Notes: a model not told the origin generated them from the sequence alone. Counted from the stretch's first letter, positions 4,154 to 64,000 are shown. The stretch is 64,000 nt of DNA from an uncultured Clostridia bacterium (GCA_947593585.1 CANQDP010000006.1:1675-65674), one strand, 5' to 3'. Numbers and translations are program-made.

Positions 4154-4191
4154 ATTTATTTAAAATGCCTCTCAAAATGAAAGGCATTTTT

Positions 4192-6508: not shown

Positions 6509-6649
6509 ATATTCTCCTGATTTAATTTATATTATATCTTAACAGAAAAATTTTGTCAATCAAAAACGACGCTATTTTCATTTTGTTAAGCCCCATATAT
6601 CAAATTAAATTATTGACTAAAAATCTTAAAATTTTCAAAAATTTTCGTT

Positions 6650-7042
6650 TTAACTTTTTCTATTTAGCAAATTTACAATCACAGATGCCACAATAGCAAC
6701 AATTAGAGCAAAGATTAAATCATACACGATTGTTAAATCAAAACTAAACGAGCCGTTTAAGATTGAAAAGACGATTAAACTTAGCAAAGAATATATCACT
6801 CCGCCAAAAGCAGACTTCACAAGCAACTTTTCGCTGCTAGCCTTTTTTAGCATGAGCACTAGCACAAAAATAGAAATACCCTTAATTGCGTTGTTTATAT
6901 ATGCCACAATTTTTGATGGCACATCCACAAATTTAAGCACTATGGCAAAGGTTACGATTCCCGCTAAGGTTACAACCAACCCCACAAGGCAACTTTTGAT
7001 GATGGACACTAATCCTGACAATTTTAATGAATTCGATTTCAT
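6650..7042 (-). CDS. Small 4-TM membrane protein (possibly TIGR04086/YrzE-like)
   Basis: 130-aa ORF made almost entirely of four hydrophobic helices. The family assignment is from memory only. Confidence 0.45.
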   Translation of the reverse strand: MKSNSLKLSGLVSIIKSCLVGLVVTLAGIVTFAIVLKFVDVPSKIVAYINNAIKGISIFVLVLMLKKASSEKLLVKSAFGGVIYSLLSLIVFSILNGSFSFDLTIVYDLIFALIVAIVASVIVNLLNRKS

Positions 7043-7157
7043 AAATCCTCCTACACTAATCTATTTTGAGCCACAAGTTTTAAAACAAGAAGATTAAGGG
7101 AAATTGAAAACAATTTGGTTTTTTTTGGTTTCTTTTGTTGAATTTGTTTTGCCAAAC

Positions 7158-7181
7158 AAAAAAATAAGCCGTTTGGCTTAT
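7158..7181 (-). terminator. Rho-independent terminator of yajC
   Basis: On the minus strand, hairpin ATAAGCC-AAAC-GGCTTAT is followed by T7. The yajC stop codon lies inside the stem. Confidence 0.55.
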
Positions 7182-7618
7182 TTCTTGCTCTTTGATTTTT
7201 TGCTAGGCTCTGCTTCTGGCTTTTTTTCTTCATCATTTTTTTGAGTTTCGCTAGGTTTTGCAGTTTCGCTTTCTTTTGCTAAGCCCCCGTCTTTCTCTTT
7301 TTTAACATTTGCCATGTTTGGCTTCTTTTCTTTCTCTTCTTTGCCAAAAACATAATAGATGGCGTTTGCATGAACGGTGAAATAACCCGTGCGTTCACCC
7401 CTGCCGGATTTCAACACCACATATTTATATTCTTCTTCCACAAACATGTCTGCAACTTCGCCCACCATGCCCGTGTCTGTCATAACCTTATCGCCAATCT
7501 TTAATTCATCACGCATTTGGCCTAATTCACTATTATAGCGTTTTCTCCTAACATAACTCACAATAAATAGTGCAACCACAAGCACCAATAAAACAATCAT
7601 CACAGCGTAGTATTGCAT
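7178..7618 (-). CDS. yajC: Preprotein translocase subunit YajC with a long K/E-rich C-terminal tail
   Basis: ATG at 7618 has AAGGAG 6 nt upstream. There is a single N-terminal TM and an IGDKVMTDTGMVGEV core typical of YajC. About 50 extra Lys/Glu-rich residues follow at the C-terminus. Confidence 0.75.
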   Translation of the reverse strand: MQYYAVMIVLLVLVVALFIVSYVRRKRYNSELGQMRDELKIGDKVMTDTGMVGEVADMFVEEEYKYVVLKSGRGERTGYFTVHANAIYYVFGKEEKEKKPNMANVKKEKDGGLAKESETAKPSETQKNDEEKKPEAEPSKKSKSKK

Positions 7619-7752
7619 AACTCTCTCCTTAATTATTAATATTTTAATAGATTGAAAAATCAAAAGTCAATTCATTTTTTGCCTAAAAATTGAAAAAATA
7701 GCACGAAAATTTTAAATTTTTGGGATAATAATCACTTTTTTGCACTTAAAAA

Positions 7753-8871
<1,119 letters not shown>

Positions 8872-8880
8872 TTATCCTAT

Positions 8881-9699
8881 TTACTTTTTCTTTATTTCTT
8901 CATGATAAAAGAAATTTTTAAATTTTATATTGTTTTTAACGCAATAATCATTTATTTCTTCTGCTAAATTCTGCCAATATGTCTTGTTATTTTTATTATA
9001 TATTTCGTTATATAGATTAACAAGATGTGGATATTTTTCCGCTATGTATTCTAAAATTTTTGCTTTATAACTTCCGCGCAAATTAAGGTTTTCAAACCAA
9101 TATTCATCAACAAAATCTTTTGTTTTGTTTATGATTTCCCTCCATTCTGTGATTTCTGGGAAAATCGGGGACATAAATAGCACTGTTTTTATGCCATTTT
9201 CATGCAAAGTTTTTAGTGTTCTTATTCGCTCTTTTATTGCGGGGGCGTTGTCCATATCGTTTTTAAATTTTTCGTTTAACGTGTTAATTGAAATGGCAAC
9301 CTCGGCATTTTTCATTTGTTTGATTATATCAACATCTCTTAACACAAGCGAAGATTTTGTGGTTATGTCCACCATAGCATTTGTGTCCTTAATCTGAGTT
9401 AAAATTTTTCTGGTAATTTGCTCTTCTTTTTCTATCGGATTATAGCAATCCGTTACCGATGAAATAAACACTGTTTTGTTTTCAATTTTTTTCAAGTCTA
9501 TAGGTTTATTGCATTCTTTAATATCAATAAAACTGCCCCAATCTTCATTATGGCCGGTGAAACGCTTCATGAAGCAAGCATAACAATATTTGCAGCCGTG
9601 CAAACAGCCAACATAAGGGTTAATTACATAATCACTTGCTGGCAGACTGGACTTGGTTAGATAATCGGGTGTTTTTATTCTGTTTATTTTTATATCCAT
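8881..9699 (-). CDS. Radical SAM protein, SPL/DNA-repair-photolyase-like (COG1533-type)
   Basis: Contains NPYVGCLHGCKYCYA, a CxxxCxxC cluster at the N-terminus, as in the SplB-like family. 272 aa. Confidence 0.7.
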   Translation of the reverse strand: MDIKINRIKTPDYLTKSSLPASDYVINPYVGCLHGCKYCYACFMKRFTGHNEDWGSFIDIKECNKPIDLKKIENKTVFISSVTDCYNPIEKEEQITRKILTQIKDTNAMVDITTKSSLVLRDVDIIKQMKNAEVAISINTLNEKFKNDMDNAPAIKERIRTLKTLHENGIKTVLFMSPIFPEITEWREIINKTKDFVDEYWFENLNLRGSYKAKILEYIAEKYPHLVNLYNEIYNKNNKTYWQNLAEEINDYCVKNNIKFKNFFYHEEIKKK

Positions 9700-9736
9700 G
9701 ATTTCTCCTTTCTATTCTCAACCACAACTCTAAGTC

Positions 9737-10543
9737 CTAAATTTTCCTTTGCCTATTAATTTCGTATAAGCAAATGCTTGTGGCGTTTGCAACATTTAAG
9801 GAATCTATATTTTCTTTCATATCAATTTTAGCAAGTTCATCAGCGATTGAGTTATAATAATTTGAAAGCCCTTTTGCTTCGTTTCCAACTAATAGCAAAG
9901 TTGGTTTTTTAAAATCACATTCATCAATAAATTTGGTTGCTTGCAAAGATGTACCCACAATTTGAAAATTTTTATATTTTGATTTCAACAACTTTATAAT
10001 TTGTTCAAAATCTTCATTTTTTTCAATAAATTTAAACGGAACTTTGAAAAATGAACCCATTGATGATGTGATAACTGTGTGGTCGTAAATATCCACCGAA
10101 TGCCCCGTGAAAAATATTTGGTCAACATGTAAAGCATCTGCACTGCGAATTATTGTGCCTAAGTTTCCTTTCTTTGATGGTCTATCAAACAACAGCAAGA
10201 GCGGATTTTTTAATTTGTCAATATTTAATGGTTGTTCTTTCATTTTAACAATCGCCAACAATTCAGACACATCCTCTTTGTCGCTTAATTTTTGCATTAA
10301 TTCATCTGTTAATTCATAACATGTTTGAGCATATTTTAAAACTGACTTCGCCCAAGCAGAAAGTTTTGATTGACTGCAAAATATGAAAGAAGATATTTCC
10401 CAATTATTTGATATTGCATCTTTAATATTTTGCACTCCTTCAACAAAAAACTTTTTATTAGCAAATCGTTTTGTTTTGTTGTTTTTCAACGCTAATATCT
10501 CTTGAAATGTTGAATTTTCTTTTCCTATGTTTATTGTTTTCAT
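9737..10543 (-). CDS. SpoU/TrmH-family RNA 2'-O-methyltransferase
   Basis: C-terminal SPOUT motifs LLLVGNEAKGLS and SLNVANATSICLYE. Confidence 0.75.
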   Translation of the reverse strand: MKTINIGKENSTFQEILALKNNKTKRFANKKFFVEGVQNIKDAISNNWEISSFIFCSQSKLSAWAKSVLKYAQTCYELTDELMQKLSDKEDVSELLAIVKMKEQPLNIDKLKNPLLLLFDRPSKKGNLGTIIRSADALHVDQIFFTGHSVDIYDHTVITSSMGSFFKVPFKFIEKNEDFEQIIKLLKSKYKNFQIVGTSLQATKFIDECDFKKPTLLLVGNEAKGLSNYYNSIADELAKIDMKENIDSLNVANATSICLYEINRQRKI

Positions 10544-10549
10544 AATTCC

Positions 10550-10861
10550 TTATTTTGTGGTTTCGTCTATCCACGAAAGGTATTCTTTTGAACCTTTTAA
10601 AATGGGCAAAGCGACAATCTCTGCCACTTCATAAGAGTGATTTGCTTTAATCGTTTTTTCAATTTCGTCATATAAAGTCTCTTTTGATTTCATTGTTAAA
10701 AGATATTCTTTTTCATTTTCAAGTTTGCCTTTCCAATGATAAAGGCTTTGAATTTCGCCAATCTGCACGCACGCAACTAATTTTTTACTTAACAATAAAT
10801 TTGCCAAATTCAACGCTTCTTCTTTCTTTTCAAATGTGGTTTTAACTTCAATATATTTCAT
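10550..10861 (-). CDS. cutA: CutA1 divalent-cation tolerance protein
   Basis: 103 aa with the pattern LVACVQI...SLYHWKG...HSYEVAEIVALPI...YLSWI, typical of CutA. Confidence 0.8.
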   Translation of the reverse strand: MKYIEVKTTFEKKEEALNLANLLLSKKLVACVQIGEIQSLYHWKGKLENEKEYLLTMKSKETLYDEIEKTIKANHSYEVAEIVALPILKGSKEYLSWIDETTK

Positions 10862-10871
10862 ATTTTAACCC

Positions 10872-11903
10872 CTACACGATGAACATACTATCGCCAAAAC
10901 TGAAAAAGCGATAGCGGTGGTCAACAGCAAATTTATAGATATCCATTGTGTTTTTATAACCCGCGAATGCGCTAACGAGCATTATAAGTGTGCTTTTAGG
11001 CAGATGAAAATTGGTTATTAGTGCGTCAACTGCCTTAAATTTATAAGGCGGATAGATGAAAATGCTCGTTTCGTCATCATCTGCTTTAAGAGGCAAACCT
11101 TTACTTGCAACCGCTTCTAGCGTGCGCACGCTTGTGGTGCCGACAGCAATCACTCGCCTGCCCTCCGCTTTTGCTTTGTTTATTGCGTCTGCAACATCTT
11201 GTGGTAGATGATAATGTTCGCTATGCATATTGTGTTTTGTTATATCTTCCTCTTTGCATGGGCGGAAAGTTCCCAGCCCAACATCGAGAGTTAGTTCAAC
11301 AATTTCAACGCCCATTTCCTTAATTTTTTGCAATAGTTCGCTTGTGAAATGCAAGCCTGCAGTTGGCGCTGCTGCGCTACCCTCAATTTTGTTATACACC
11401 GTTTGATAGCGTTCTTTATCTTTTAATTTTTCGTGAATATAGTGGGGCAAAGGCATGCTGCCAACGCGATTTAAAATATCTTCAAACACGCCATCAAATT
11501 CAAATGAAACAATGCGGTTGCCGTCCTCTAACACTTGCTTTAGCGTGCAAGAAAGTTCGTCATTAATTTTAATTTTTTGCCCAATTTTCACTTTCTTTGC
11601 GGGTTTCATTAACACTTCCCAATCGTGCAAATTGTGGCGTTTTAAAAGCAAAATTTCAATCTCTCCACCCGTTTCTTTATGGGCAATTAGGCGCGCAGGC
11701 AAAACGCGAGTGTTATTCACAACCAACACATCGCCCTTACGCAAAAAGTCGCTGATGTCTTTAAACTTGCTTTCGGTTATCTTTTTATTTTTGCGATTAA
11801 AAACGAGCAATTTGCTTTCGTCTCGCTTGGTTAGTGGTGTTTGAGCAATCAATTCCTCTGGCAAATCGTAATCATAAATTGAAAGAGATTTATAGTTTAT
11901 CAT
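10872..11903 (-). CDS. queA: S-adenosylmethionine:tRNA ribosyltransferase-isomerase
   Basis: Contains [15 protein letters not shown], the [13 protein letters not shown] motif and [10 protein letters not shown] at the C-terminus. I prefer the ATG at 11903 (14-nt overlap with ruvB) to the longer ORF start at 11960. Confidence 0.9.
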
Positions 11904-12933
11904 CACCCTCTCCGCTATCTGCCATAAGCGTTTTTGGCACAGGCAAGCCGAAATGCTCATACGCCAAGCGGGTTACCATTCTGCCCCTTGGTGAGCGCAA
12001 AACAAAGCCGAGTTGCAACAAATATGGCTCAACCACATCTTCTATGGTCGAAATTTCTTCATTTGTGGTGGCTGAAAGTGTCTCCAACCCAACCGGACCG
12101 CCACCAAACTTCTCAATCATTGCCATTAACACGCGTTTATCCACATAATCTAACCCTAAATCGTCAATATCCATAAGGGTTAGCGCTTTTTTAGCGTCAG
12201 CCGCCGTTATGACATTTTTATCTTCCACTTGCACATAATCTCGCACGCGCTTTAATAGGCGGTTTGCCACGCGCGGAGTGCCGCGGCTGCGCTTTGCAAT
12301 CTCAATTTCCGCGTCTTTCTCTATATCCACGCCCAAAATGCTAGCCGAGCGCGAGATGATTTTTGCAATCTCTTCAACTGTGTACATCTCTAAGCGACAT
12401 ACAACGCCAAATCTATCTCGCAGCGGGCTTGAAAGATTGCCCACCTTGGTCGTTGCACCAATGAGAGTGAAAGGTTGAATTTTTAGCCTCATGCTGCGCG
12501 CACTTGGACCTTTGCCCACAATGAAATCTAGAGCATAGTCTTCCATAGCGGGATATAAAATCTCTTCCACAGATTTTGAAATGCGATGAATTTCATCGAT
12601 GAAAAGCACATCATTTGTGTTTAAATTAGTTAAAATTGCGGCAAGGTCGGCAGCGTTTTCTATGCTTGGACCACTTGTGATTTTAATTTGACTGCCCATT
12701 TCGTTGGCTATAATGTGGCTCAATGTGGTTTTGCCAAGCCCTGGCGGGCCATAAAGCAAAACATGGTCTAGCGCCTCTTTCCTCTTCTTTGCAGCATTGA
12801 TATACACTTTAAGATTAGATTTAATTTTTTCTTGCCCCACATATTCGTCAAAAGACATTGGTCGAAGTTTATTTTCGACCTCGACATCGCTCATATTCTT
12901 AGTGCTTGAAATAAATCTATCTTTCTCTTCCAT
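11890..12933 (-). CDS. ruvB: Holliday junction branch migration helicase RuvB
   Basis: Walker [13 protein letters not shown], Walker [10 protein letters not shown] and the [16 protein letters not shown] motif. Confidence 0.95.
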
Positions 12934-12946
12934 AATGTTTCCTTTT

Positions 12947-13771
12947 TTATTGCTTTCGATATTTTTCCAATAAATTTTCTAATTTTTCTGCCCTTTTATG
13001 TGCTTCTTTTAAATATTGCTCGTTTGTTAATTTATCATAAGAGGTTGGCATTCCCCAGCAGTCTTTATGCACTTCTAGCATTATTACATTTTTATAAGGA
13101 GTTTTGGCAAGTTTTTCACACACTTTGTTATAGTTAATCTTGCCGTCAAAAGGAAGGAAATGCAAATCATTTGACCAATCGAAGCCATATTCCCAGTCCA
13201 AATTGTTATCATGCAAATGCACCGCCAAAATTCTATTGCCATAACGTTTTAATAAGTCCACTTTTGGCAAATATAATTGATGATGCCCACAATCATAGCA
13301 AAAACCTAAGTTTTTATCCTTTATGTTTTCCATAACATAAACAAAATGCTTATAACTTAATTTATCTAAGTTCTCCAGGGCAATTTTAACTTTGTGTTTT
13401 TTAGCAAAATCAACTAATTCTTTGATGCATTTCAACCCATGTTCGTTTGGCGGAAGCGCAAGTTCATTTGCTGAGCCCCTAGTTGCATGCATAACAGCTA
13501 TTGGAATTCCATATTTGGCACAAAGGGAGATTTGCTCTTTTAAACTCTGCACCACTATTTCGTTCTCTGGCCCTTTGCACCATAAATTGTTTGTGTTAGT
13601 TAAATGCACATAAGGGACATTCAAACCTAATCTTAGTGCTTCTTTTAATGTTTCTTCCGCCTGACCGGTTTTAAAAGCCACCATAACACTTTTAAAGCCT
13701 GTATTTTTTATGTTTGATAAAATTTCTTTATAGTCCTTGCCACATTCACAATTTGTGTTTATCCCTATCAT
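12947..13771 (-). CDS. Xylose-isomerase-like TIM-barrel protein (sugar-phosphate isomerase / AP-endonuclease-2 superfamily)
   Basis: 274 aa with a metal-ligand-like series: [28 protein letters not shown] and MLEVH. Confidence 0.6.
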
Positions 13772-55943: not shown

Positions 55944-56386
55944 ATGAAAGTTAGATTTGCAAAGAAAACTGAATTAAAAGATATCTCTAACCTTAACTCA
56001 ATTTTTGTTAAGGAAAATTGTTGCAACAACATTGTGGCAGATAGCGAAGAATATTATGCCAATAAAAAAATTTTGGTTGCTGTTGGAGATAACAAAATCA
56101 TTGGATACGCTTATGGCGATTTTTCTAAAGAAACTAGCACAAGGAGTTACGCAAAAGCTAATGACAAATTTTTGAGTTGGAAGAAATGTATGTTTTGCCA
56201 AAATTTAGAAATTTAGGTGTTGGGCAAAAACTTTTTAAACAAATTGAAAAGTATGCTCAACTTAACGGAGCAAAAACTTTGCGTTTAAACGCTGTTTCTA
56301 AAAATTACAAATCATTGCTAAACTTTTATATTGATATTTTGGGCATGGAATTTATTAGTGCCTATTTAATTAAAAAATTAGATTAG
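55944..56386 (+). pseudogene. GNAT-family acetyltransferase interrupted by a frameshift at a T5 run
   Basis: ORF 55944-56216 carries the N-terminal half. The +2 frame from about 56174 continues ELEEMYVLPKFRNLGVGQKLF (GNAT motif A) to 56386. The frames join if the T5 run at 56169-56173 were T6. Confidence 0.7.
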
Positions 56387-56587: not shown

Positions 56588-56632
56588 TGGAGCTACTGGC
56601 GGGAATCGGACCCGCGACCCCCACCTTACCAA
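56588..56632 (-). pseudogene. 3' half of a tRNA-Thr(GGU) gene (anticodon loop to CCA); probable attachment-site remnant
   Basis: The minus strand reads TTGGTAA (loop with GGT anticodon), GGTGG, GGGTC, GCGGG-TCCGATT-CCCGC (T arm), CAGTAGC-T-CCA. No complementary 5' acceptor or D arm lies upstream. T-loop position 55 is C rather than T. Confidence 0.6.
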
Positions 56633-56715
56633 GACAAAAACACAATAACAAAGGGTTGTGTTCTATGCTTATAAATATACCATAATCAAAGCGATTTGGC
56701 AATCAACTTGAAAAA

Positions 56716-56758
56716 GTGTTGTCAAAAAATTGAAAATATTGACAACAGTTGACAACAA
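56716..56758. repeat. Three copies of TTGACAACA (one inverted, two tandem direct)
   Basis: gtgttgtcaa at 56716-56725 (inverted). ttgacaacag at 56739-56748 and ttgacaacaa at 56749-56758 (tandem). They lie about 100 bp inside the putative left end of the element. Confidence 0.6.
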
Positions 56759-56932
56759 TTATGCCATTTTGAGTGAACTAAAACGATGTTGAACTGCCTA
56801 AAACTATGTAATTCTTTTTAGATTTTACATATAAACATTTCTTTTCTCATTTTAGAAAAATTTAGGAATTTCGATACAAATTTTGCTTGTTTATGCTATT
56901 ATATAGACATAGGTTAAAAAGTGAGGTGTAAA

Positions 56933-57205
56933 ATGGACAATCAAGAATTGTTGAAATTTGCAGACAAAATTAAAACTAAATTCTTTTATAGATTAAAAGA
57001 TGAAACTCAGCCAGCAAAGAAAGAATTTTCATATATTGATTTATTAGGCATTTTGGATGAAGTTTACGCAGAAAGCAACATAACCAAACAAGACATTGAA
57101 AAATATGATAAGGAAAAACAAGAAGAAGCGCTGAACGAATTAGAGCCAATTTTTAAAGAAACATTTGGAAAGGCGTATGTGACAAAAAAAAGAAATGAAG
57201 CTTAA
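56933..57205 (+). CDS. Small acidic hypothetical protein (90 aa)
   Basis: ATG at 56933 has GAGGTG 4 nt upstream. Lys/Glu/Asp-rich and helical-looking. It lies 40 nt upstream of the deaminase-fold gene. Confidence 0.5.
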   Translation: MDNQELLKFADKIKTKFFYRLKDETQPAKKEFSYIDLLGILDEVYAESNITKQDIEKYDKEKQEEALNELEPIFKETFGKAYVTKKRNEA

Positions 57206-57244
57206 TATCCGCCAAGAAAACAATAAATACAAAGGAGATTTGAG

Positions 57245-58168
57245 ATGTTAAAAACAGAAGCGTATAGTTATTTAGAATATATCAAAAGGCAGCCAAAGAC
57301 GGACATTCACAATCACGCGCTATCTTCGTGCAGATTTCAATTTTTAAAACAAAATGGTGTAAACTTGCCCGACAACTACAAAATGAACGGAATTGCAAGC
57401 CTTATAGATTTCAGCCGCAAATATCTTACACCTTTGGAAAATGAAATAAGCACATTAAAACTTCTGCTCGAAGGTAATTTTTTAAATTGTATTGAAACGG
57501 GCGTGAAAATTGTTTGTCCTTCGATTGACTATAAAATTTGTTTAAGGACTTTTTATGGTGATGTGCAGACCTTTATATCTTTTTTGCAACAATTTCAATA
57601 TGATAATTTAAAAATATTGTGGGATTTGTCTATCAGCCGAGATAGTTTTGTTGAAGAACACAGACAACTATTCCTTGACCTTTTACAAACAAAGTTTTTT
57701 AGTGGAATAGATTTGGCATCAACTGAAAATATAAAGCCAAATTCAACTTTCGTCGAATTTTATAAAATTGCAAATGATTTGAATATGATAACAAAGGTCC
57801 ACGCAGGAGAAATGCTCGGGCCAGATTATATAAAACAATGTATTTTAGATTTTAATCCAAAACATATTCAACATGGCATTTCGGTTATTAAAGATAAAGA
57901 GGTTATGCAACTTGCCAAAGACAGAAATATTGTTTTTAATGTTTGTCCATCAAGCAATGTGTGTTTAGGATATGCCAAGAATATGAAAAGCCACCCAATT
58001 AGGAAAATGGTGGACAATGGATTGAATATAACGCTTTCTACGGATGATTTGTTGTTTTTTGACAGCGATATCAACGAAGAATATAATAAATTGTTTGTAA
58101 ATGGAACGCTAACATTTGAGGAACTTGAAAAAATAAGAAATTTTGGACTCGAAATTTTTAAGAAATAA
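57245..58168 (+). CDS. Adenosine/AMP-deaminase-family metallo-hydrolase (compact, 307 aa)
   Basis: AAGGAG RBS 7 nt upstream. All ADA signature elements are present in order: PKTDIHNHA (HxH, 57308-57316), GIDLASTEN, KVHAGE (57800-57811), IQHGIS, NVCPSSN and TLSTDDLLFF (58040-58048). Confidence 0.8.
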   Translation: MLKTEAYSYLEYIKRQPKTDIHNHALSSCRFQFLKQNGVNLPDNYKMNGIASLIDFSRKYLTPLENEISTLKLLLEGNFLNCIETGVKIVCPSIDYKICLRTFYGDVQTFISFLQQFQYDNLKILWDLSISRDSFVEEHRQLFLDLLQTKFFSGIDLASTENIKPNSTFVEFYKIANDLNMITKVHAGEMLGPDYIKQCILDFNPKHIQHGISVIKDKEVMQLAKDRNIVFNVCPSSNVCLGYAKNMKSHPIRKMVDNGLNITLSTDDLLFFDSDINEEYNKLFVNGTLTFEELEKIRNFGLEIFKK

Positions 58169-58289
58169 AGGATCGTGCACTATAACACAATGAATATTTG
58201 TAGAGAATTGTATTTACATAGTCTAATGTGAGTAAAAGTGTCGTCCAAAATGAGATTTCTTGTTGTATAATAGTGGCAGGAGGTCGAAA

Positions 58290-58352
58290 ATGAAATTTAG
58301 CGAAAAATTAAAAAAGTTGAGAAAAGACAACAATATGAATTTATTAGACTAA
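58290..58352 (+). pseudogene. 20-codon stub resembling the N-terminus of an XRE-family HTH regulator
   Basis: GGAGG RBS, then MKFSEKLKKLRKDNNMNLLD and a stop. XRE regulators typically begin MxxxxxLKxLRxxxxxTQEELA. A hairpin follows directly at 58353-58379. Confidence 0.4.
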
Positions 58353-58380
58353 AAAAGGAACTTGTTGTTAGTTCCTTTTT

Positions 58381-58677
58381 CTATTTTTTTATTAAGCCTT
58401 CGTAAGTAGATTTGATGATATTGCAAAGCTTTTCGCTATCGTCAACATCTTCTACCATATACATTTGTTTTGCCCCTTCGTATGGGGTTTCTAATGGCAT
58501 ATTAAAGCCTATGTTGTTTGCGTTTGGTTTAACAAGAAGTCTATCATCGTAAAGTCCACCTACCAAAGTCCCTTTGTAGTAAAGCAAATATTCGCCCATC
58601 ATGGGCTTGCAGGTGATTGGTGATAAATCTGCTAATTGTTCAAGAATAAAGTCTTTAAACTCTTTTGAAGTTGCCAC
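58381..58677 (-). CDS. TfoX N-terminal domain protein
   Basis: GTG at 58677 has AAGGAG 5 nt upstream. (M)ATSKEFKDFILEQLADL...MMGEYLLYYKGTLVGGLYDDRLLVKP matches the TfoX_N family pattern as I recall it. The longer ORF to 58806 overlaps the permease gene. Confidence 0.65.
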   Translation of the reverse strand: MATSKEFKDFILEQLADLSPITCKPMMGEYLLYYKGTLVGGLYDDRLLVKPNANNIGFNMPLETPYEGAKQMYMVEDVDDSEKLCNIIKSTYEGLIKK

Positions 58678-58691
58678 TTTTTCTCCTTTAA

Positions 58692-59630
58692 TTAAGATTT
58701 TTTGTGTTCTTTTTGGTGTAGTTTGCGCTTTTTTAAATGTGAAATTAAAATGTAAAGACCTAAAAGCAATAAACTCGTGCCTACAACAACTGTGAAAAGT
58801 GCCCAAGTAGGCATTGTGGTATCAAACAAAACAAATTTACCGTCAAAAGAAAGGCGAATTTGCTCGGCGATTTCGGCAGGCACATGTTCTGCTGTTTGCA
58901 GGTGATTGATAACTCCGTTCATATAATACTGTCTAAACAAAACCGTTCCAAAAGTGCTTGGAAGAAAACTTAAAAATGTTTTTATCCCCACGCCGAATTG
59001 AGAAATTGGCATATACGCACCACTTATAAATCCATACATGGAAGAAACAAGTGATGAAACGGCGGAGTGCGCGCCTTGTGAAGAAACAAGCATTCCAACA
59101 ATAGATGCCAGCAAACTGCCAAATAAACACATACAAATTGTCGAAACAAAAAGCATAAAGACATCAAAAAATGTTAGGAAAAAGCCAACGCAGGCAAGAT
59201 ATATAAAACTTATAATAAGCACAATTACACATATTAAAAAGGTCGTTAAAAAGTTAGAGATAAAATATGAAATGAGAAGTGTTGATTTTTTTACAGGCGT
59301 AATATTCAAATCGTTTATAGATTTATTTATTTTGTCTAACACCATAATATTTGAACAAAAGGCGACTGTCACGCACGAAACAGCAACTATTGATGAAAAT
59401 AGCCAACCGCCGCAAAAGGCTTCAATAGTTTGTTTGCTAATTTCAACACCTTCTGGCAAAAAATTTGTTATAATGCTTGCATACACTCCTTTCAAAAAAG
59501 TTAAAAACAGCACAACCAAAATTATTGGAGTGAGCAGCGAAATAAAAAATGTCATTTTATCTTTAAAATAAAGCTTAATGTTTCTGCCAACAAGAGCAGA
59601 GAGTTTTTTAAATTCACTTAACATACGCAA
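58692..59630 (-). CDS. ABC-2-type transporter permease
   Basis: 312 aa with 6 TM helices. It overlaps the upstream ATPase gene by 17 nt. Confidence 0.75.
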   Translation of the reverse strand: MRMLSEFKKLSALVGRNIKLYFKDKMTFFISLLTPIILVVLFLTFLKGVYASIITNFLPEGVEISKQTIEAFCGGWLFSSIVAVSCVTVAFCSNIMVLDKINKSINDLNITPVKKSTLLISYFISNFLTTFLICVIVLIISFIYLACVGFFLTFFDVFMLFVSTICMCLFGSLLASIVGMLVSSQGAHSAVSSLVSSMYGFISGAYMPISQFGVGIKTFLSFLPSTFGTVLFRQYYMNGVINHLQTAEHVPAEIAEQIRLSFDGKFVLFDTTMPTWALFTVVVGTSLLLLGLYILISHLKKRKLHQKEHKKS

Positions 59631-60546
59631 CCTCTTTCAAATCTTTGCCGGTTATGTTCAAAAAGACATTATCCATTTTGCCTTTAAGCACTTCAAAATC
59701 GAAAATCAATTTTTGGTATTTGACAATGAAATTTTTTGCTTGTTCAATGTCGGCAACTTCGATTTCAATCGTTTTTTCATTTTGTGTAAATTTTACTTTG
59801 TCCTTTGCAAGAATTTTAGGCAAAGAGTTGTCATATTTATAAATTCTTAAAAAGTCATTTGCATATTTGTTTTTCAAATTGTTTGGGGTGTCGTTTGCGA
59901 CAATCTTTCCGCTATCAATAATCACAATCGTGTCCGCTTCATTTGCTTCTTCCATATAGTGAGTGGTCAAAATAATCGTAAGTTCTTTTGTCTTTCTTAA
60001 AGATGACAAAAGTTCCCATACCAAAATTCTTGTCTTTGGATCAAGCCCCGTAGTTGGCTCATCAAGAATTAAAATTTGTGGGTTGTGAATAAGGGCGCGT
60101 GCAAGGTCAATTCTTCTTTTTTGTCCGCCACTTAATTTGTAAAGTGGGCGATTAAGTATATCTTTAAATTCTAACTTGTCGGACAAAAATTCCAAGTTAT
60201 CTTTAAATTTTTCATTGTTTATATCATATAGTTTGGCTTTTATTTTTAAGTTTTCCAAAACTGTCAATTTGTTGTCAAGCACTGAATTTTGAAAAACAAC
60301 GCCAAGTGTTGGCTTAATTTTTTCAATGTCTTTGTCTAAATCATAGCCACACGCATAAATCTTGCCACTGTCTTTGTCAAGTTGTCCGCAAAGAATGTTT
60401 ATTGTTGTGGATTTTCCTGCGCCATTAAGTCCTAAAAACGCAAAAAGTTCTCCCTTTTTAACTGAAAAAGAGATGTCATCAACGGCTTTAACTTCTTTAA
60501 AATATTTTTTTAAGTGCTGGATTTCAATTATATTATTTGTTGTCAT
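59614..60546 (-). CDS. ABC transporter ATP-binding protein (DrrA/ABC-2 exporter type)
   Basis: Walker A GLNGAGKST, signature LSGGQKRR and Walker B ILILDEPTTGLD. Confidence 0.9.
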   Translation of the reverse strand: MTTNNIIEIQHLKKYFKEVKAVDDISFSVKKGELFAFLGLNGAGKSTTINILCGQLDKDSGKIYACGYDLDKDIEKIKPTLGVVFQNSVLDNKLTVLENLKIKAKLYDINNEKFKDNLEFLSDKLEFKDILNRPLYKLSGGQKRRIDLARALIHNPQILILDEPTTGLDPKTRILVWELLSSLRKTKELTIILTTHYMEEANEADTIVIIDSGKIVANDTPNNLKNKYANDFLRIYKYDNSLPKILAKDKVKFTQNEKTIEIEVADIEQAKNFIVKYQKLIFDFEVLKGKMDNVFLNITGKDLKEVAYVK

Positions 60547-60766
60547 TTCCGCCTTCTTTCAACTTAAAAATTTCTTCTGCAAATTTCAAATAGTCATCAT
60601 ACTTTGCAATAGCAATACCTTTGCTTAAATCTCCAAGCAAAATAAGGGTGTCGCCTTCTTTAAAGCCAAAAACATCTCTCGCTTGTTTTGGCAACACAAT
60701 TTGTCCTTTGCTTGTGATTTTTGTTGTCCAAATAAATTTGTCTTGTTGTTCGTTTTTCATAATCAC
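60533..60766 (-). CDS. AbrB/MazE/SpoVT-family DNA-binding protein
   Basis: KITSKGQIVLPKQARDVFGFKEGDTLILL is a SpoVT-AbrB swapped-hairpin motif. It overlaps the ABC ATPase gene by 14 nt. Confidence 0.8.
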   Translation of the reverse strand: MIMKNEQQDKFIWTTKITSKGQIVLPKQARDVFGFKEGDTLILLGDLSKGIAIAKYDDYLKFAEEIFKLKEGGNDNK

Positions 60767-60910
60767 TCCTTTACTATATTTCTTACTTTTCTTACTTATT
60801 ATACAAAATAAAAATTATTATGTCAAGGATTTTTCATTAGATAAAGAAAATTTTTCTGAATGTTGTCACAAATGCAAGATTTTTAATTGTTTTTGTGTTA
60901 AAATGGATTT

Positions 60911-61633
60911 GTGGTTTGGATAAAATACAGAGATAGAATACATGGGCAAATCGTTGATGTTGAGGTCAGCGAAGCAGTTGCACGCTATCTTTGGGCGGCC
61001 GACAGAAAATGGCGAAGGCTTATGCTGAAAGCCAGATTTTATGAACGCAGTTTTAATAACAGCATTTTTGAAGATGATGACGAAATAACTTTTGAAGAAA
61101 CAATCGCAGATCCAAATGTAGATGTTGAAAAAGAGGTCGAAGATAAAATTTTCGCCGAAGTTATTTGGGCAGTGGCGAAAAACCTAACTCCACTTCAACA
61201 AGAAATTATGAGAGAACGATACATATTCGATATGCGAATGAGTGATATTGCCAAAAAGCACAACATGACAAGAAGTGCGCTAACGCAATTTATGGCCACA
61301 GCACACAAACACTTTACTTTCTATCTTACGCATGACAAAGAATTTGTTAAAACATATTGGTTTGAAACTCATTATAAAGAGATTTCACAGGACATTATTG
61401 ACACTGCAAAAGACGAATTATCCAATAATAAATTCAAATTGAATATGGAAACTTTGGACAATATAGAAAAGTTTGCAAAAGAAATGACACAATATATAAA
61501 GATTGGCGACAAACTAAACGCTGGGCTTACTCCAAAGCAAAAAAAATTGTGGCAAAAAATGTCAAAAGTGGTTTGTGGAACGATAAAAGAGTTAAAAAAC
61601 AACCTAAAAAATAAAAATTTGGAACAGAAATAA
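60911..61633 (+). CDS. Sigma-70 region-4-like regulator of the mobile element
   Basis: LTPLQQEIMRERYIFDMRMSDIAKKHNMTRSALTQ resembles the region 4 HTH of Tn916 Orf7-type proteins. The N-terminal YRDRIHGQIVDVEVSEAVARYL is also typical of element-borne homologues. Only a GTG start (60911) without a clear RBS is available. Confidence 0.55.
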   Translation: MVWIKYRDRIHGQIVDVEVSEAVARYLWAADRKWRRLMLKARFYERSFNNSIFEDDDEITFEETIADPNVDVEKEVEDKIFAEVIWAVAKNLTPLQQEIMRERYIFDMRMSDIAKKHNMTRSALTQFMATAHKHFTFYLTHDKEFVKTYWFETHYKEISQDIIDTAKDELSNNKFKLNMETLDNIEKFAKEMTQYIKIGDKLNAGLTPKQKKLWQKMSKVVCGTIKELKNNLKNKNLEQK

Positions 61634-61695
61634 TTTACTGCCTAAATTTTTTCATAAAATTTGTCCTTAAAATATTATAGGGAACAAAACAGAAC

Positions 61696-61729
61696 AAGAA
61701 CGATTTTTCCTGCGGTCGTTCTTTTTTTG
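61696..61729 (+). terminator. Hairpin plus T-run after the sigma-like gene
   Basis: aagaacga - 12 nt - tcgttctt followed by ttttttg. Confidence 0.5.
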
Positions 61730-61786
61730 TTGTGCCTATTTTTTATAGAAAATTTATAGACAAAAAATTCAACAAAAGGAGGGCTT

Positions 61787-62032
61787 ATGAAATCGACCAA
61801 ATTGAAAAGTGAAATTATGTTGCGCATAAGAGATAAGCGGCTTTTGGACAAACTGCAAGAAATGTATGACGACACAAAGTATGAAAGTGTAAACGAATTT
61901 TTGAATGCAGTTTTGAAAACGGCGGCTTTCAAAGACACAAAAGAAGATGAGATTATTTTGTTGTTAGAGAATGTAGATGACAAGACAAATGCGATTTTTG
62001 AGGGCTTGCAGCATGGAAACTTTAAAAGATAA
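61787..62032 (+). CDS. Small putative ribbon-helix-helix / relaxosome accessory protein
   Basis: AGGAGG RBS. KSEIMLRIRDKRLLDKLQEMY...SVNEFLNAVL fits an RHH (beta-strand, helix, helix) pattern. It lies immediately upstream of the relaxase and overlaps it. Confidence 0.4.
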   Translation: MKSTKLKSEIMLRIRDKRLLDKLQEMYDDTKYESVNEFLNAVLKTAAFKDTKEDEIILLLENVDDKTNAIFEGLQHGNFKR

Positions 62033-63203
62033 CATTGTTTTGTTATGCAAATTCTATCAACCCAAAGAAAAGTATGTTGGCAAGAAAAGAGATTTGTCCA
62101 AACAACGAGATTTCGTGAGTTGCAATTCATCTTACAACTATGTCAGTTATGTTGACACCGGTGCGACCAACAAAGTGCCAAAGGACTATGAAATGTATGT
62201 TGGAAATAAAGAAAAATCTTGCGGTGCGTTTAGCAAAAATGGCCTTTTGACTGACAAAGAAAAAAGAGAGTTGCGAGAAATGTTGCGAACAACGCAAAGC
62301 AATATTTGGGATATGGTAATTTCGTTTAGAACAGAGTTTGGCGAACAATATTGCAGAGATTATGACCAAGCGTATGAGTTTTGCAAAAGCGAATTGCCAA
62401 AGTTTTTTAAGCGTGCAGGACTTGATCCAGATAATGTTGTGTGGTATGCAGGTTTGCACGAGAACACAGAGAACAAACACATTCACATTTCGTTTTTCGA
62501 GAAAGAGCCAACACACTATGCAAACGGTGGAAAGTTGACTTATCATAGTGGAACGATAAACAAAAAAGTTTTGCTTGAAAGCAAGTTTATCTTTGAAAAG
62601 AAATTGACAAATGCGAGTGCCGAAATTGTGAAAGCGAGAAAAGATTTATATGAGAAATATAACCTAAATTTCTCAAATTTCGATTTGTGCAAGAAAGGCA
62701 AAAAGTTGTTGTTGGAACTTTACAAAGAGTTGCCAAAATCTGGAAGGCTTGGCTATGATAGCGAAAATATGCTGCCACTTAAAAAGAAAATTGACGACAC
62801 GACAGAATGGTTTTTAGTCCACAACGAGCAGACTTGGAAATCGTATTTGAACTACAATGAAAAACTCGCGGAAATGCAAACTTGGAAAAAACAAAGATAT
62901 GCAGATGACGGAATTCACTACAAAGAAGATATGTTTAGAAGGCTTGGAAATAAGACAATCCAAACTGCTTTGGAACTTGGAAAACAACATGATGAAATTG
63001 AGAAAATGAAAACCTATGGAAGAAAGCAAAAAGCATACAAAAAGCAACTGCGAAAGTTTGAATGGGATAGACTTTTGAATATGCTTGAATATTATTCTTT
63101 TGTCGAACAAGAAGAAATGGAAGCCTTTACGCGTTGGCATGAAAAGATTGAGCATTATGCCAAACAACAAGCCTATTTGAATGGTTATGACGAAGAAATG
63201 TAG
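62013..63203 (+). CDS. Putative relaxase / mobilization protein (MobL-like)
   Basis: His-rich motif GLHENTENKHIHISFFE (62457-62495) resembles the relaxase 3-His metal site. N-terminal YNYVSYVDTGA resembles Firmicutes MOB_L relaxases as I recall them. It sits before xis-int. I prefer ATG 62013 to 61977. Confidence 0.55.
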   Translation: METLKDNIVLLCKFYQPKEKYVGKKRDLSKQRDFVSCNSSYNYVSYVDTGATNKVPKDYEMYVGNKEKSCGAFSKNGLLTDKEKRELREMLRTTQSNIWDMVISFRTEFGEQYCRDYDQAYEFCKSELPKFFKRAGLDPDNVVWYAGLHENTENKHIHISFFEKEPTHYANGGKLTYHSGTINKKVLLESKFIFEKKLTNASAEIVKARKDLYEKYNLNFSNFDLCKKGKKLLLELYKELPKSGRLGYDSENMLPLKKKIDDTTEWFLVHNEQTWKSYLNYNEKLAEMQTWKKQRYADDGIHYKEDMFRRLGNKTIQTALELGKQHDEIEKMKTYGRKQKAYKKQLRKFEWDRLLNMLEYYSFVEQEEMEAFTRWHEKIEHYAKQQAYLNGYDEEM

Positions 63204-63527
63204 TGCGTCAGAAAACTTTTTACAGGGCTCCCGAAAATGCTTGCCATTTTTGGGAAGAGGAAAAGCAAGTCATCAGGGCGAAAAATCCAACTTTGTTGGG
63301 TTTTGAGTGCGTCAGACTTTGCTTTGACGACAAACAGGATAAGCGGAAGAAACATTGTGCAGTGGAAAATTGCCACAAAAAGCCCTAAAAATAGGACTTT
63401 TTTTGATGTTGCAACCCACTGCGTCAATATTTTCTTCCTTACTTTTCGACAAGTGGGCAAACCCACTTTCGATTTAGTTGATTTATAGCAGGAACACAAA
63501 CAAAAATTTATAACTTACGGAGGCTAT

Positions 63528-63785
63528 ATGACAAATAATTCAATAAATATAAACAATTTAATACAAAGCGAAGTTGACAGAATTTCGCAAAAATATAACA
63601 AAGATTTTTTAGACTGCGAGGACCTTATTAAAATCACAGGACTCGGCAGAGATAATGTGAGAAGTTTGCTACGCAGTAAAGATTTTCCAACAACAAAAGT
63701 TGGCAAAAGACAAGTTGTTAGCGTGCTAAATTTCGTCACTTGGCTGACAACAAAAAATAACAATGGCGAGGTGCAAAATGGCTAA
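63528..63785 (+). CDS. xis: Excisionase-family (MerR-like HTH) DNA-binding protein
   Basis: ACGGAGG RBS. DLIKITGLGRDNVRSLLRSKDFPTTKVGKRQVV is an HTH. It overlaps the integrase start by 8 nt. Confidence 0.7.
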   Translation: MTNNSININNLIQSEVDRISQKYNKDFLDCEDLIKITGLGRDNVRSLLRSKDFPTTKVGKRQVVSVLNFVTWLTTKNNNGEVQNG

Positions 63786-64000
63786 AAACAAGGTTGTGAA
63801 TAAAACGCGTAGAGCCAATGGCGAAGGTTCAATATGTCAAAGAAAAGACGGTCGTTGGATCGGTGTTGTGAGTGTTGGTTATGATGAAAATGGCAAAGCA
63901 ATTAGGAAAACTGTTTACGGAAAAAGCCAGACCGAAGTTGCTAAAAAAATTGCTGACATGACCGGCAGATTGAATAATAACACCTATGAGATTATGGAAA
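63778..64000 (+). CDS. int: Tyrosine-type site-specific integrase, N-terminal part (runs off the right edge)
   Basis: My own translation, as this ORF is not in the track: MAKNKVVNKTRRANGEGSICQRKDGRWIGVVSVGYDENGKAIRKTVYGKSQTEVAKKIADM... This is the characteristic arm-binding N-terminal domain of phage/ICE tyrosine integrases. Confidence 0.8.
   Translation, partial: MAKNKVVNKTRRANGEGSICQRKDGRWIGVVSVGYDENGKAIRKTVYGKSQTEVAKKIADMTGRLNNNTYEIME

What the first reader, a model, noticed from the sequence alone, without database searches (positions are those of the whole stretch)
56588..64000. Small integrative mobilizable element bounded on the left by a 3' half of tRNA-Thr(GGU)
At 56588-56632 the minus strand encodes the anticodon loop (GGT), variable loop, T arm, acceptor 3' strand and CCA of a tRNA-Thr. 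No 5' half is present. This is exactly what is left at the distal junction when an element integrates into the 3' part of a tRNA gene. To the right, all within about 7.4 kb, lie the cargo genes and then a co-oriented sigma-r4-like, RHH, relaxase, Xis, tyrosine integrase module reading toward the window edge. No conjugation machinery is present, so this would be an IME rather than an ICE. An intact tRNA-Thr on the minus strand is predicted about 1-1.3 kb past the window end.
Basis: partly seen in the sequence, partly recalled or inferred. Interest (0 to 1): 0.6.

Follow-up and report, generated by a model that had tools for sequence, protein, structure and literature searches.

The report
Mobile element splits tRNA-Thr, brings replacement
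An 8.9-kb mobilizable element has cut this gut bacterium's only tRNA-Thr(GGU) gene in two at the anticodon loop and, instead of repairing it, carries its own complete copy, a trick published only for some phages and here common in non-phage elements of small-genome gut Clostridia.

Summary
Window 56588-56632 (-) is the 3' half of a tRNA-Thr(GGU).

The intact tRNA is not the regenerated target. It matches the fragment at only 57 of 75 positions, with compensatory stem differences. The cognate 5' half lies 53 nt beyond it, on the next contig (77-nt overlap). Joining the two halves gives a perfect cloverleaf, 100% identical to the intact gene of four congeneric genomes.

The 8,858-bp element therefore sits in the 7-nt anticodon loop (TTGGTAA; 9-bp common core). 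It leaves the host gene split and carries its own replacement tRNA inside attP. Its genes are a tyrosine integrase, Xis, a MobL relaxase, a sigma-like regulator, an ABC-2 exporter, TfoX_N and a deaminase-fold cargo gene. The same element, with the same tRNA, sits between different host-specific halves in other species.

Relatives show stacks of dead 5' halves, tandem accretion, and sister elements doing the same to tRNA-Ile(GAU). The closest published analogue is tRNA-dependent lysogeny of actinobacteriophages (2024). This is a non-phage variant.

The parts
56588..56632 (-). Orphan 3' half of the host tRNA-Thr(GGU), from the anticodon loop to CCA, followed at 56587 and below by the gene's native terminator. 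This is the attR junction.
   Evidence: Joined to the 5' half on contig C13 it gives a perfect 75-nt cloverleaf, 100% identical to intact genes in G001, G010, G025 and G035.
56625..56633 (-). Common core CTTGGTAAG (7-nt anticodon loop TTGGTAA at 56626-56632), the left copy of the 9-bp direct repeat. The first element base is 56633.
   Evidence: The second copy is at C6:67157-67165. The junction is at the identical position in G061, a different host.
56633..56640 (-). Element-side core arm TTTTTGTC. In the circular form it would be the perfect inverted partner of GACAAAAA at the other end, giving attP core TTTTTGTC-TTGGTAA-GACAAAAA.
   Evidence: attP joined in silico. The same end sequence occurs in G061, L064, L066 and L070.
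56717..56757 (.). Three TGACAACA repeats (one inverted, two tandem), the arm-type sites of the left attP arm.
   Evidence: 10 hits in 11.2 kb against 0.61 expected. A mirrored triplet lies just after the int stop codon, beyond the window (C6:66828-66856).
56921..57205 (+). 94-aa ORF with no family hit, the first cargo gene.
57245..58168 (+). 307-aa adenosine-deaminase-fold protein (cargo).
   Evidence: PF00962, 7e-35.
58381..58806 (-). TfoX_N-domain protein. The ORF is 141 aa from TTG, but relatives-107 aa, so the true start is probably internal.
58692..59630 (-). ABC-2 family permease.
   Evidence: PF12698 and PF01061.
59614..60546 (-). ABC transporter ATPase.
   Evidence: PF00005, 5e-36.
60533..60766 (-). 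AbrB/MazE (SpoVT) fold regulator, first gene of the exporter operon.
   Evidence: PF04014, 7e-9.
60911..61633 (+). 240-aa sigma-70 region-4-like protein, a putative element regulator.
   Evidence: 1.5e-4, below the cut-off; PHROG sigma factor, 3.5e-7.
61787..62032 (+). 81-aa ORF upstream of and overlapping the relaxase gene. It is a putative relaxosome accessory protein. The fold was not verified.
   Evidence: no family hit. The ORF is conserved in all related elements.
61977..63203 (+). MobL-family relaxase.
   Evidence: PF18555, 1e-24.
63528..63785 (+). 85-aa HTH protein, a putative excisionase (Xis/RDF).
   Evidence: HTH_17, E 0.005, weak. The assignment rests on its position just before int. 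The exact protein is found in 338 blocks of public assemblies.
63763..64000 (+). 5' part of the 461-aa tyrosine integrase gene, which continues to C6:66822 (window-equivalent 65148). The rest of the element lies beyond the window: TGACAACA x3 (equivalent 65154-65182), a terminator, the element-borne tRNA-Thr(GGU) on the minus strand (equivalent 65356-65430), a 53-nt spacer, the right core TTGGTAA (equivalent 65484-65490), and then the host 5' half on contig C13.
   Evidence: R227, H355, R358, H381, Y391; closest solved structure is Tn1549 Int, 6e-13.

Best explanation
The region is an 8,858-bp integrative mobilizable element (IME) at C6:58300-67157, window 56626 to about 65483. A heterobivalent tyrosine integrase inserted it into the 7-nt anticodon loop of the host's tRNA-Thr(GGU) gene. 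attP has a symmetric core, TTTTTGTC-TTGGTAA-GACAAAAA, that mimics the anticodon stem-loop CCACC-TTGGTAA-GGTGG of attB. Three TGACAACA arm-type sites lie on each attP arm. attP and attB share only 9 bp, so neither junction rebuilds a tRNA and the host gene stays split. Its 3' half with the native terminator lies at window 56588-56632. Its 5' half with the native promoter lies on the next contig. The element compensates with its own complete tRNA-Thr(GGU) gene. This gene lies inside attP, 53 nt from the crossover, in the same orientation as the broken host gene. It therefore lands directly behind the host's consensus promoter. The steps shown are the split, the element-borne tRNA, the boundaries, the arm-site repeats, and recurrence in other hosts. 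The inferred steps are transcription of the replacement tRNA by read-through from the host promoter, Xis-assisted precise excision that would restore the host gene, and MobL-dependent mobilization by a helper conjugative system. Because the replacement tRNA carries the same core, it becomes the next target. Related genomes accordingly show stacks of dead 5' halves and tandem element arrays.
For: (1) The halves are cognate. C13:68-105 carries GCTACTGTGGCTCAGGGGTAGAGCACCACC-TTGGTAA followed by element sequence. C6 and C13 overlap by 77 nt. Joined in silico, the halves give a 75-nt tRNA with every stem Watson-Crick paired, 100% identical to intact genes in G001, G010, G025 and G035.
(2) The intact tRNA is a different allele. 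It matches at 57 of 75 positions, with compensatory changes in the acceptor and anticodon stems.
(3) The tRNA travels with the element. L053, L055, L057/G061, L064, L066, L068 and L070 carry near-identical elements (integrase 94-98% identical) with the identical tRNA, next to different host 5' halves. In G061 both halves are present and are cognate to each other (GCTGATG/CATCAGC), with junctions at the same bases.
(4) Sites exist in all expected states. The intact gene has conserved right-flank synteny in G025 (87% aa). The closest relative, G024 (flanks 95% identical), has the same tRNA split by a different element.
(5) TGACAACA occurs 10 times against 0.61 expected. Triplets flank the core on both arms, and the tRNA lies between the core and the int-proximal triplet.
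(6) A 12/12 consensus promoter (TTGACA-17-TATAAT) lies upstream of the orphan 5' half. No promoter was found in the spacer, and a terminator-like hairpin with a T run, read by eye, follows the element tRNA.
(7) The integrase has intact R-H-R-H-Y residues and Pfam and PHROG integrase hits. The relaxase is MobL. No conjugation genes are present.
(8) Serial use is visible. The 5' half of this very element-type tRNA is itself split by later elements in L056 and G014. Arrays of 2-4 orphan 5' halves with periods of 80-100 nt occur in G005, G007, G008, G020, G033, G036 and L059.
Against: No direct evidence shows present-day excision or transfer. The predicted attP junction was not found in JGI metagenomes or IMG/VR, although the element itself is absent from JGI metagenomes, so that result is uninformative. 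Expression of the replacement tRNA from the host promoter is inferred from a simple consensus scan only. The Xis call is weak (E 0.005, below the cut-off). The 81-aa 'RHH' ORF has no family hit, and oriT was not located. The C6-C13 join rests on a 77-nt assembly overlap in a MAG, though contiguous contigs from other assemblies show the same layout. Whether the cell needs tRNA-Thr(GGU) is unproven, because tRNA-Thr(UGU) might read all four codons and the assembly is 92% complete.
Confidence: 0.88

Rival explanations
1. Classical tRNA-targeting island. The element integrated into the 3' part of tRNA-Thr, the intact tRNA next to int is the regenerated host/element hybrid, and the left fragment is the displaced 3' end repeated as a direct repeat of about 45 nt.
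For: An intact tRNA-Thr(GGU) in the expected orientation lies 206 nt downstream of int. The T arms of the fragment and the intact gene are nearly identical.
Against: No copy of the 32-nt 3' segment occurs elsewhere in the genome within 3 mismatches. The acceptor and anticodon stems differ in a compensatory way. The matching 5' half lies 53 nt beyond the intact gene. The intact tRNA is constant across hosts whose orphan halves differ.
Confidence: 0.03
2. The architecture is as described, but this copy is an immobile fossil. The element can no longer excise or transfer, and the replacement tRNA is now simply the cell's tRNA-Thr(GGU) gene.
For: No excised form was detected and read data were unavailable. 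Relatives show decayed remnants, namely a remnant of about 1.5 kb in G036 and a 9-kb integrase-less island in G010.
Against: All element ORFs are open, and the integrase catalytic residues are intact. Both core arms and all six arm-type repeats are perfect. Copies 94-98% identical sit in different species. The exact Xis protein occurs in 338 blocks of public assemblies.
Confidence: 0.15
3. Assembly or binning artefact. C6 and C13 are not truly adjacent, and the 5' half belongs to another organism in the metagenome.
For: The link is only a 77-nt overlap at a contig break. The break falls exactly where different hosts' 5' halves would diverge, which suggests a graph branch.
Against: C13 itself carries 67 nt of element sequence after the loop. 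Its 5' half pairs perfectly with the 3' half on C6. G024 has both flanks at about 95% identity around the same split tRNA. Uninterrupted contigs from other assemblies show the same layout.
Confidence: 0.02
4. It is a prophage or phage satellite, that is, true tRNA-dependent lysogeny, rather than an IME.
For: The integrase hits PHROG family 1. The strategy is published only for phages (PMC10865867).
Against: The 8.9 kb contains no capsid, terminase, portal, lysis or phage replication gene. A MobL relaxase is present. The closest solved integrase is that of conjugative transposon Tn1549.
Confidence: 0.04

Closest known systems
tRNA-dependent lysogeny of actinobacteriophages (Fionnbharth/K4, Cluster L, Cain, Gaia; Guerrero-Bustamante & Hatfull, mBio 2024, PMC10865867)
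   Same: A tyrosine integrase acts on an attB that overlaps a tRNA gene. attP and attB share only 8-17 bp (9 bp here). No functional tRNA is rebuilt at either junction. [quoted passage not shown]
   Different: This element is a relaxase-bearing IME of gut Clostridia, not a phage. In Fionnbharth the tRNA lies elsewhere in the genome with its own demonstrated promoter. Here it lies inside attP, 53 nt from the crossover, behind the host's own promoter. The replacement tRNA is re-targeted, which gives stacked 5' halves and tandem arrays that the paper does not report.
Classical tRNA/tmRNA-targeting genomic islands and prophages (Islander definition, PMC4383910; P4, HP1, mv4 type)
   Same: The integrase gene lies next to a tRNA gene, a displaced tRNA fragment marks the far end, and the anticodon loop serves as the crossover region flanked by the symmetric stem.
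   Different: Those elements carry the tRNA's 3' portion in attP and regenerate the target. Here the target is left broken and a whole gene is supplied.
Prophage Lj965 of Lactobacillus johnsonii (cited in PMC10865867 as a possible case outside Actinobacteria)
   Same: A Firmicutes element that fails to rebuild the tRNA and carries a cognate tRNA.
   Different: It is a prophage. I read no details of it here and know it only through the citation.
Tandem accretion of integrative elements at one att site (ICE/IME/CIME arrays in streptococci; tycheposon arrays at tRNA genes in Prochlorococcus, bioRxiv 10.1101/2020.12.28.424599). The comparison rests on my own knowledge and an abstract only.
   Same: Repeated site-specific integration at one tRNA locus leaves reiterated att fragments. 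L066 and L073 show two elements in tandem joined by a hybrid att site.
   Different: In those systems the reiterated pieces are 3' tRNA ends. Here 5' halves with spacers accumulate upstream of a working gene that is replaced each time.
Tn916/Tn1549-family integrases (PDB 6EN0, 6EMY, 6EMZ)
   Same: They are the closest solved relatives of the catalytic and core-binding domains (E 6e-13), and they occur in a Firmicutes mobile-element context with an Xis.
   Different: By my own knowledge, Tn916-type integrases have low target specificity. This integrase is specific for one tRNA anticodon loop.

Membership tests
Integrative mobilizable element (IME) | Encodes its own site-specific recombinase for integration and excision | tested here: met
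   461-aa tyrosine integrase: PF00589 3e-26, PHROG family 1 5e-68, R227/H355/R358/H381/Y391 present.
Integrative mobilizable element (IME) | Encodes a relaxase (and oriT) but no conjugative pore or coupling protein | tested here: met
   MobL relaxase 1e-24. None of the 14 element ORFs is a T4SS or T4CP gene. oriT itself was not located.
Integrative mobilizable element (IME) | Bounded by att sites sharing a core with the empty target | tested here: met
   A 9-bp CTTGGTAAG lies at both ends. The in-silico empty site equals the intact tRNA of four congeners.
Integrative mobilizable element (IME) | Recombination directionality factor (Xis) | tested here: inconclusive
   An 85-aa HTH ORF overlaps the int start. 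HTH_17 E 0.005 is below the cut-off. The assignment rests on position and size.
Integrative mobilizable element (IME) | Demonstrated excision and mobilization | not testable with these tools
The attP junction was not found, but the element is absent from JGI metagenomes. The indirect evidence is near-identical copies in different species.
tRNA-dependent ('split and replace') integration, as defined in PMC10865867 | Tyrosine integrase whose attB overlaps a host tRNA gene | tested here: met
tRNA-dependent ('split and replace') integration, as defined in PMC10865867 | Short common core (about 10 bp), so no functional tRNA is rebuilt at attL or attR | tested here: met
   The core is 9 bp. attL is the 5' half plus spacer, and attR is the element arm plus the 3' half. 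ARAGORN calls neither a tRNA.
tRNA-dependent ('split and replace') integration, as defined in PMC10865867 | [quoted passage not shown] | tested here: met
   tRNA-Thr(GGU) at C6:67030-67104, constant across hosts.
tRNA-dependent ('split and replace') integration, as defined in PMC10865867 | The disrupted tRNA is otherwise unique or essential, so the element copy is required | tested here: inconclusive
   The element copy is the only tRNA-Thr(GGU) among 40 tRNAs of a 92%-complete assembly. ACU plus ACC make up 47% of Thr codons. Essentiality is not testable here.
tRNA-dependent ('split and replace') integration, as defined in PMC10865867 | The element is a temperate phage (lysogeny) | tested here: not met
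   No phage structural, packaging or lysis genes are present, and a relaxase is. It works like tRNA-dependent lysogeny but is not lysogeny.
Classical tRNA-regenerating island | attP carries the tRNA 3' portion, the regenerated tRNA abuts the element, and the displaced fragment repeats its 3' end | tested here: not met

The most novel reading that the evidence does not exclude
In this family of gut Clostridia with genomes of about 1 Mb, the working tRNA-Thr(GGU) gene, and likewise tRNA-Ile(GAU), is in effect owned by mobile elements. Each incoming element kills the resident copy and installs its own behind the host promoter. The tRNA allele, including the odd C55 T-loop variant, would then turn over horizontally. 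The cell would be held hostage, since imprecise loss of the element removes the only decoder of ACC and ACU. The upstream stack of dead 5' halves would be an ordered, readable record of past invasions.
Probability: 0.4. Interest if true: 0.7.

Novelty: new variant of a known kind. Interest (0 to 1): 0.55.

Why it matters
Island-finding software such as Islander-type methods assumes that a tRNA-targeting element regenerates its target and is bounded by a repeat of the tRNA's 3' end. Elements of this kind break that rule and will be mis-delimited or missed.

The principle of breaking the tRNA and bringing a spare was published only in 2024, and only for actinobacteriophages. Here a relaxase-bearing IME uses it, and so do sister elements with other integrases and another target, tRNA-Ile(GAU). 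The exact Xis protein occurs in hundreds of human-gut assemblies.

Three consequences follow:
- The tRNA sits inside attP behind the host promoter, which gives a compact design.
- It could serve as an addiction-like stabiliser in reduced genomes that hold single-copy tRNAs.
- It moves tRNA alleles between species.

The int-attP-tRNA module of about 2 kb could also be a self-sufficient integration cassette for genetically intractable gut Clostridia.

Tried and rejected
- I searched the own genome for a second copy of the fragment's 32-nt 3' segment, allowing 3 mismatches. None exists, which removed the direct-repeat model.
- An exact search for the predicted attP junction gave 0 hits in JGI metagenome contigs and in IMG/VR. 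A control search for the attL/attP right arm alone also gave 0 hits in JGI metagenomes. The element is therefore not in that collection, and the negative result says nothing.
- An exact-protein look-up of the integrase found nothing. The Xis look-up worked.
- The best phage-database integrase hit was MT839135.1, a 6.7-kb faecal 'Bacteriophage sp.' at 34% identity. It has no tRNA and no TTGGTAA core. Plasmid hits were at most 30% identical.
- The promoter scan of the 53-nt spacer and the tRNA-int interval found no minus-strand promoter for the element tRNA. I therefore dropped the idea of an own promoter in favour of read-through from the host promoter.
- I first measured the spacer as 62 nt with a uniform 100-nt period. 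Recounting gives 53 nt (90-nt period) for this element, and periods of 78-101 nt in other lineages.
- G010's two full tRNA-Thr genes 9 kb apart looked like an element whose attP is a whole tRNA. The interval has no integrase, and I left it unexplained.

Full report
**Observation**

The minus strand of window 56632->56588 reads CTTGGTAAGGTGGGGGTCGCGGGTCCGATTCCCGCCAGTAGCTCCA. This is a tRNA-Thr(GGU) from the anticodon loop to CCA. ARAGORN finds no complete tRNA anywhere in the window.

The window is G000:C6:1675-65674, in a 1.06-Mb, 25-contig, 92%-complete genome of about 37% G+C. Relatives found through the integrase are titled 'uncultured Clostridia bacterium' MAGs from human and rabbit gut.

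- an adenosine-deaminase-fold protein, a TfoX_N protein, an ABC-2 permease with its ATPase, and an AbrB/MazE-like protein;
- a 240-aa sigma-70 region-4-like protein;
- an 81-aa ORF with no family hit;
- a MobL relaxase;
- an 85-aa HTH protein (weak HTH_17 hit);
- a 461-aa tyrosine integrase that runs off the window.

**The prediction and what it turned out to be**

ARAGORN on the whole genome finds one tRNA-Thr(GGU), on the minus strand at C6:67030-67104.

It is not a repeat of the fragment. No second copy of the fragment's 32-nt 3' segment exists within 3 mismatches. The two tRNAs agree at only 57 of 75 positions. The acceptor stems differ (GCTACTG/CAGTAGC against GCTGGTG/CACCAGC), and so do the anticodon stems (CCACC/GGTGG against CGGCC/GGCCG). 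These differences are compensatory, so they are two alleles rather than a gene and its decayed copy.

Contig C6 ends 53 nt beyond the intact tRNA, in ...CCTTGGTAAG|ACAAAAATG (read on the minus strand). Contig C13 overlaps that end by exactly 77 nt and continues with GCTACTGTGGCTCAGGGGTAGAGCACCACC. This is the 5' half that pairs with the window's 3' half.

Joining C6..58307 to C13:77.. in a script yields a 75-nt tRNA-Thr(GGU) with all stems Watson-Crick paired. It is 100% identical to the intact gene of congeneric genomes G001, G010, G025 and G035, and 97-99% identical to those of G006, G009, G018 and G023.

The host gene is therefore split within its anticodon loop by an 8,858-bp insert. The intact tRNA lies inside that insert.

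**The intact tRNA belongs to the element**

Thirteen of 16 loci found through the integrase carry a convergent tRNA-Thr(GGU) downstream of int. Twelve of them have one or more orphan 5' halves just beyond it.

Loci L053, L055 and L057 have integrases 94-98% identical to this one and the identical tRNA (...TTAGTGGGAAAGCGCGGCC-TTGGTAA-GGCCGAGAGAGCGGG...). Their orphan 5' halves differ, ending in ..GCACAGCC or ..GCGTCGCC.

In G061, the genome of L057, I recovered both ends of a 12.7-kb variant of the element, 96-98% identical to ours in the shared segments. Its flanking halves are GCTGATG...TCGCC-TTGGTAA and TTGGTAA-GGCGG...CATCAGCTCCA. They are cognate to each other and differ from ours, and the junctions fall at the same bases. 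This is an independent replicate in another species.

Metagenome contigs L064, L066, L068 and L070 repeat the pattern, and L070 again has cognate halves.

**Empty and independently occupied sites**

G025 has the intact gene with conserved right-flank genes (87% aa over 353 residues) and the same terminator sequence downstream of the tRNA.

G024 is the closest relative, with both flanks about 95% identical. It has the same tRNA split at the same place by a different element. That element's ends are ...GAGCATTTTC-TTGGTAA and TTGGTAA-AACAAAAATGTGGCAAATCC.

**Anatomy of the recombination site**

Joined in silico, the element ends give the attP core TTTTTGTC-TTGGTAA-GACAAAAA. This is an 8-bp perfect inverted repeat around a 7-bp spacer identical to the anticodon loop. 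attB is CCACC-TTGGTAA-GGTGG, and the two share only CTTGGTAAG.

TGACAACA occurs 10 times in 11.2 kb against 0.61 expected, and none of 200 shuffles reached 10. Three copies lie 85-125 bp inside the left end (window 56717-56757). Three more lie immediately after the int stop codon, beyond the window.

This is the layout of a lambda-like heterobivalent integrase with arm-type sites on both arms. The integrase keeps R227, H355, R358, H381 and Y391. Its closest solved relative is Tn1549 Int.

The replacement tRNA lies between the core and the int-proximal arm sites, so it is inside attP. Other lineages have different repeats at the same position: TTGCTGTCA, GTAGGTGTCA and TTTGCAACA.

**Expression (inferred)**

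A 12/12 consensus promoter, TTGACA-17-TATAAT, lies about 50 nt upstream of the orphan 5' half on C13. The scan found no minus-strand promoter in the spacer. A hairpin with a T run, read by eye, follows the element tRNA.

The simplest reading has three steps. The host promoter now transcribes the 5' half, the 53-nt spacer and the replacement tRNA. RNase P removes the leader. Placing the tRNA hard against the crossover is what allows this promoter capture. In phage Fionnbharth, by contrast, the tRNA lies elsewhere and has its own demonstrated promoter.

**Need for the tRNA**

The element copy is the only tRNA-Thr(GGU) among the 40 tRNAs found. ACU and ACC make up 47% of Thr codons in long ORFs. 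Dependence on it is plausible but unproven.

**Serial replacement and accretion**

The 5' half of this element's own tRNA type is found split by later elements in L056 and in G014.

Arrays of two to four orphan 5' halves lie upstream of the working gene in G005, G007, G008, G020, G033, G036 and L059. Each half ends at TTGGTAA and is followed by a lineage-specific spacer. The periods are 78-101 nt.

In L066 and L073 two elements lie in tandem. They are joined by a hybrid site: our element's left arm, then TTGGTAA, then the other element's spacer and tRNA.

A Rep-encoding element in G023 (Viral_Rep plus helicase) uses the same site and strategy with an integrase only about 33% identical over a short tblastx stretch.

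Sister elements have the identical Xis and a similar backbone but a 438-443-aa integrase. They do the same to tRNA-Ile(GAU): the loop is CTGATAA, they carry their own tRNA-Ile, and 5' halves are stacked.

I searched an even sample of 401 genomes of the order for the scar signature GCNCNNCC-TTGGTAA-RAYAA. It occurs in 7 of 21 genomes of this family but in only 1 of 380 genomes of other families, with one control hit.

**Comparison with the known**

The published analogue is tRNA-dependent lysogeny (Guerrero-Bustamante & Hatfull 2024, PMC10865867). Its features are a tyrosine integrase, a core of 8-17 bp, no reconstruction of the tRNA, and a phage-encoded cognate tRNA that is required for viable lysogens.

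This element meets each mechanistic criterion that could be tested. It is not a phage: it has a MobL relaxase and no virion genes. I therefore file it as working like that system but not as lysogeny.

I found no paper describing this design for IMEs, or describing the 5'-half stacks. The library is incomplete, so this is not proof of absence.

Earlier notes of this scan report the same design at other tRNAs and in other gut Clostridia, including stacked halves. They agree with my reading, but they are unchecked AI notes and I did not use them as evidence.

**Limits**

Excision, transfer and tRNA expression are untested. Database searches for the attP junction were uninformative. The Xis, accessory-protein and oriT assignments are positional.

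Noticed in passing
window 56599-56605 (-), C6:67030-67104, and all other tRNAs of G000: Both tRNA-Thr(GGU) alleles, host and element, have the T loop TCCGAT(T/C), with C at the universally conserved U55 (pseudouridine-55) position. All 39 other tRNAs of the genome have TTC. Relatives carry two circulating classes of tRNA-Thr(GGU): a 75-nt class with C55 and a 76-nt class with the canonical TTC loop.
   Followed up: partly
L065 11780-12210; L067 11780-12230; L071 7940-8110; L072 4110-4290: Sister elements have the identical Xis and a similar backbone but a 438-443-aa integrase. They split tRNA-Ile(GAU) in its anticodon loop (CTGATAA), carry their own tRNA-Ile(GAU), and leave stacked 5' halves between tRNA-Ala and tRNA-Ile. 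Their arm-type repeat is TTTGCAACA.
   Followed up: partly
L027 (G010:C2) 4509-13698: Two full-length tRNA-Thr(GGU) genes lie 9.1 kb apart with no integrase between them. The interval holds a 1394-aa protein and redoxin-domain proteins. One tRNA is 100% host type. The other is a chimera of a foreign 5' half and the host-type 3' half, with a G-G mismatch in the acceptor stem. Its origin is unexplained.
   Followed up: partly
L026 (G023:C2) 3353-12680: A different element of about 9.2 kb occupies the same site with the same split-and-replace layout. It carries a 470-aa integrase, a Viral_Rep plus helicase protein, an ADP-ribosylglycohydrolase and an HTH_3 regulator. Its spacer is 142 nt and its tRNA is 97% identical to the host type.
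   Followed up: partly
L070 about 3560-3600 (-): About 200 nt downstream of the orphan 3' half there is a second, shorter tRNA-Thr fragment (T arm, acceptor strand and terminator only). It looks like the scar of a classical T-arm-targeting element at the same gene.
   Followed up: no
C6:67090-67166 / C13:1-77: The contig break falls exactly after ...TTACCAAGG, the last base shared by all the different host 5' halves seen with this element. This would fit an assembly-graph branch caused by the same element sitting in more than one genomic context in the sample. The left junction is not broken, so this remains a guess.
   Followed up: no
C13:155-183 (-): A perfect 12/12 consensus sigma-70 promoter (TTGACA-17-TATAAT) lies in front of the now-dead 5' half of the host tRNA-Thr gene.
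   Followed up: partly
window 55944-56386 (+): The GNAT gene next to the left junction is in two overlapping ORFs of 90 and 69 aa. Only the second hits acetyltransferase families. This is consistent with the frameshift noted by the first stage. I could not check whether it is a real pseudogene or a homopolymer error.
   Followed up: partly
window 58381-58806 (-): The TfoX_N ORF, as listed from a TTG start (141 aa), overlaps the permease gene by 115 nt. Related elements call it at 98-107 aa, so the true start is probably internal. In the Xis-sharing related elements, an HTH_3/HTH_19 regulator lies next to the TfoX_N gene, and no deaminase gene is listed.
   Followed up: no
order-wide census: The scar signature (5'-half end, TTGGTAA, then RAYAA) occurs in 7 of 21 sampled genomes of this family of about 1-Mb genomes, but in only 1 of 380 genomes from other families of the order.
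   Followed up: partly
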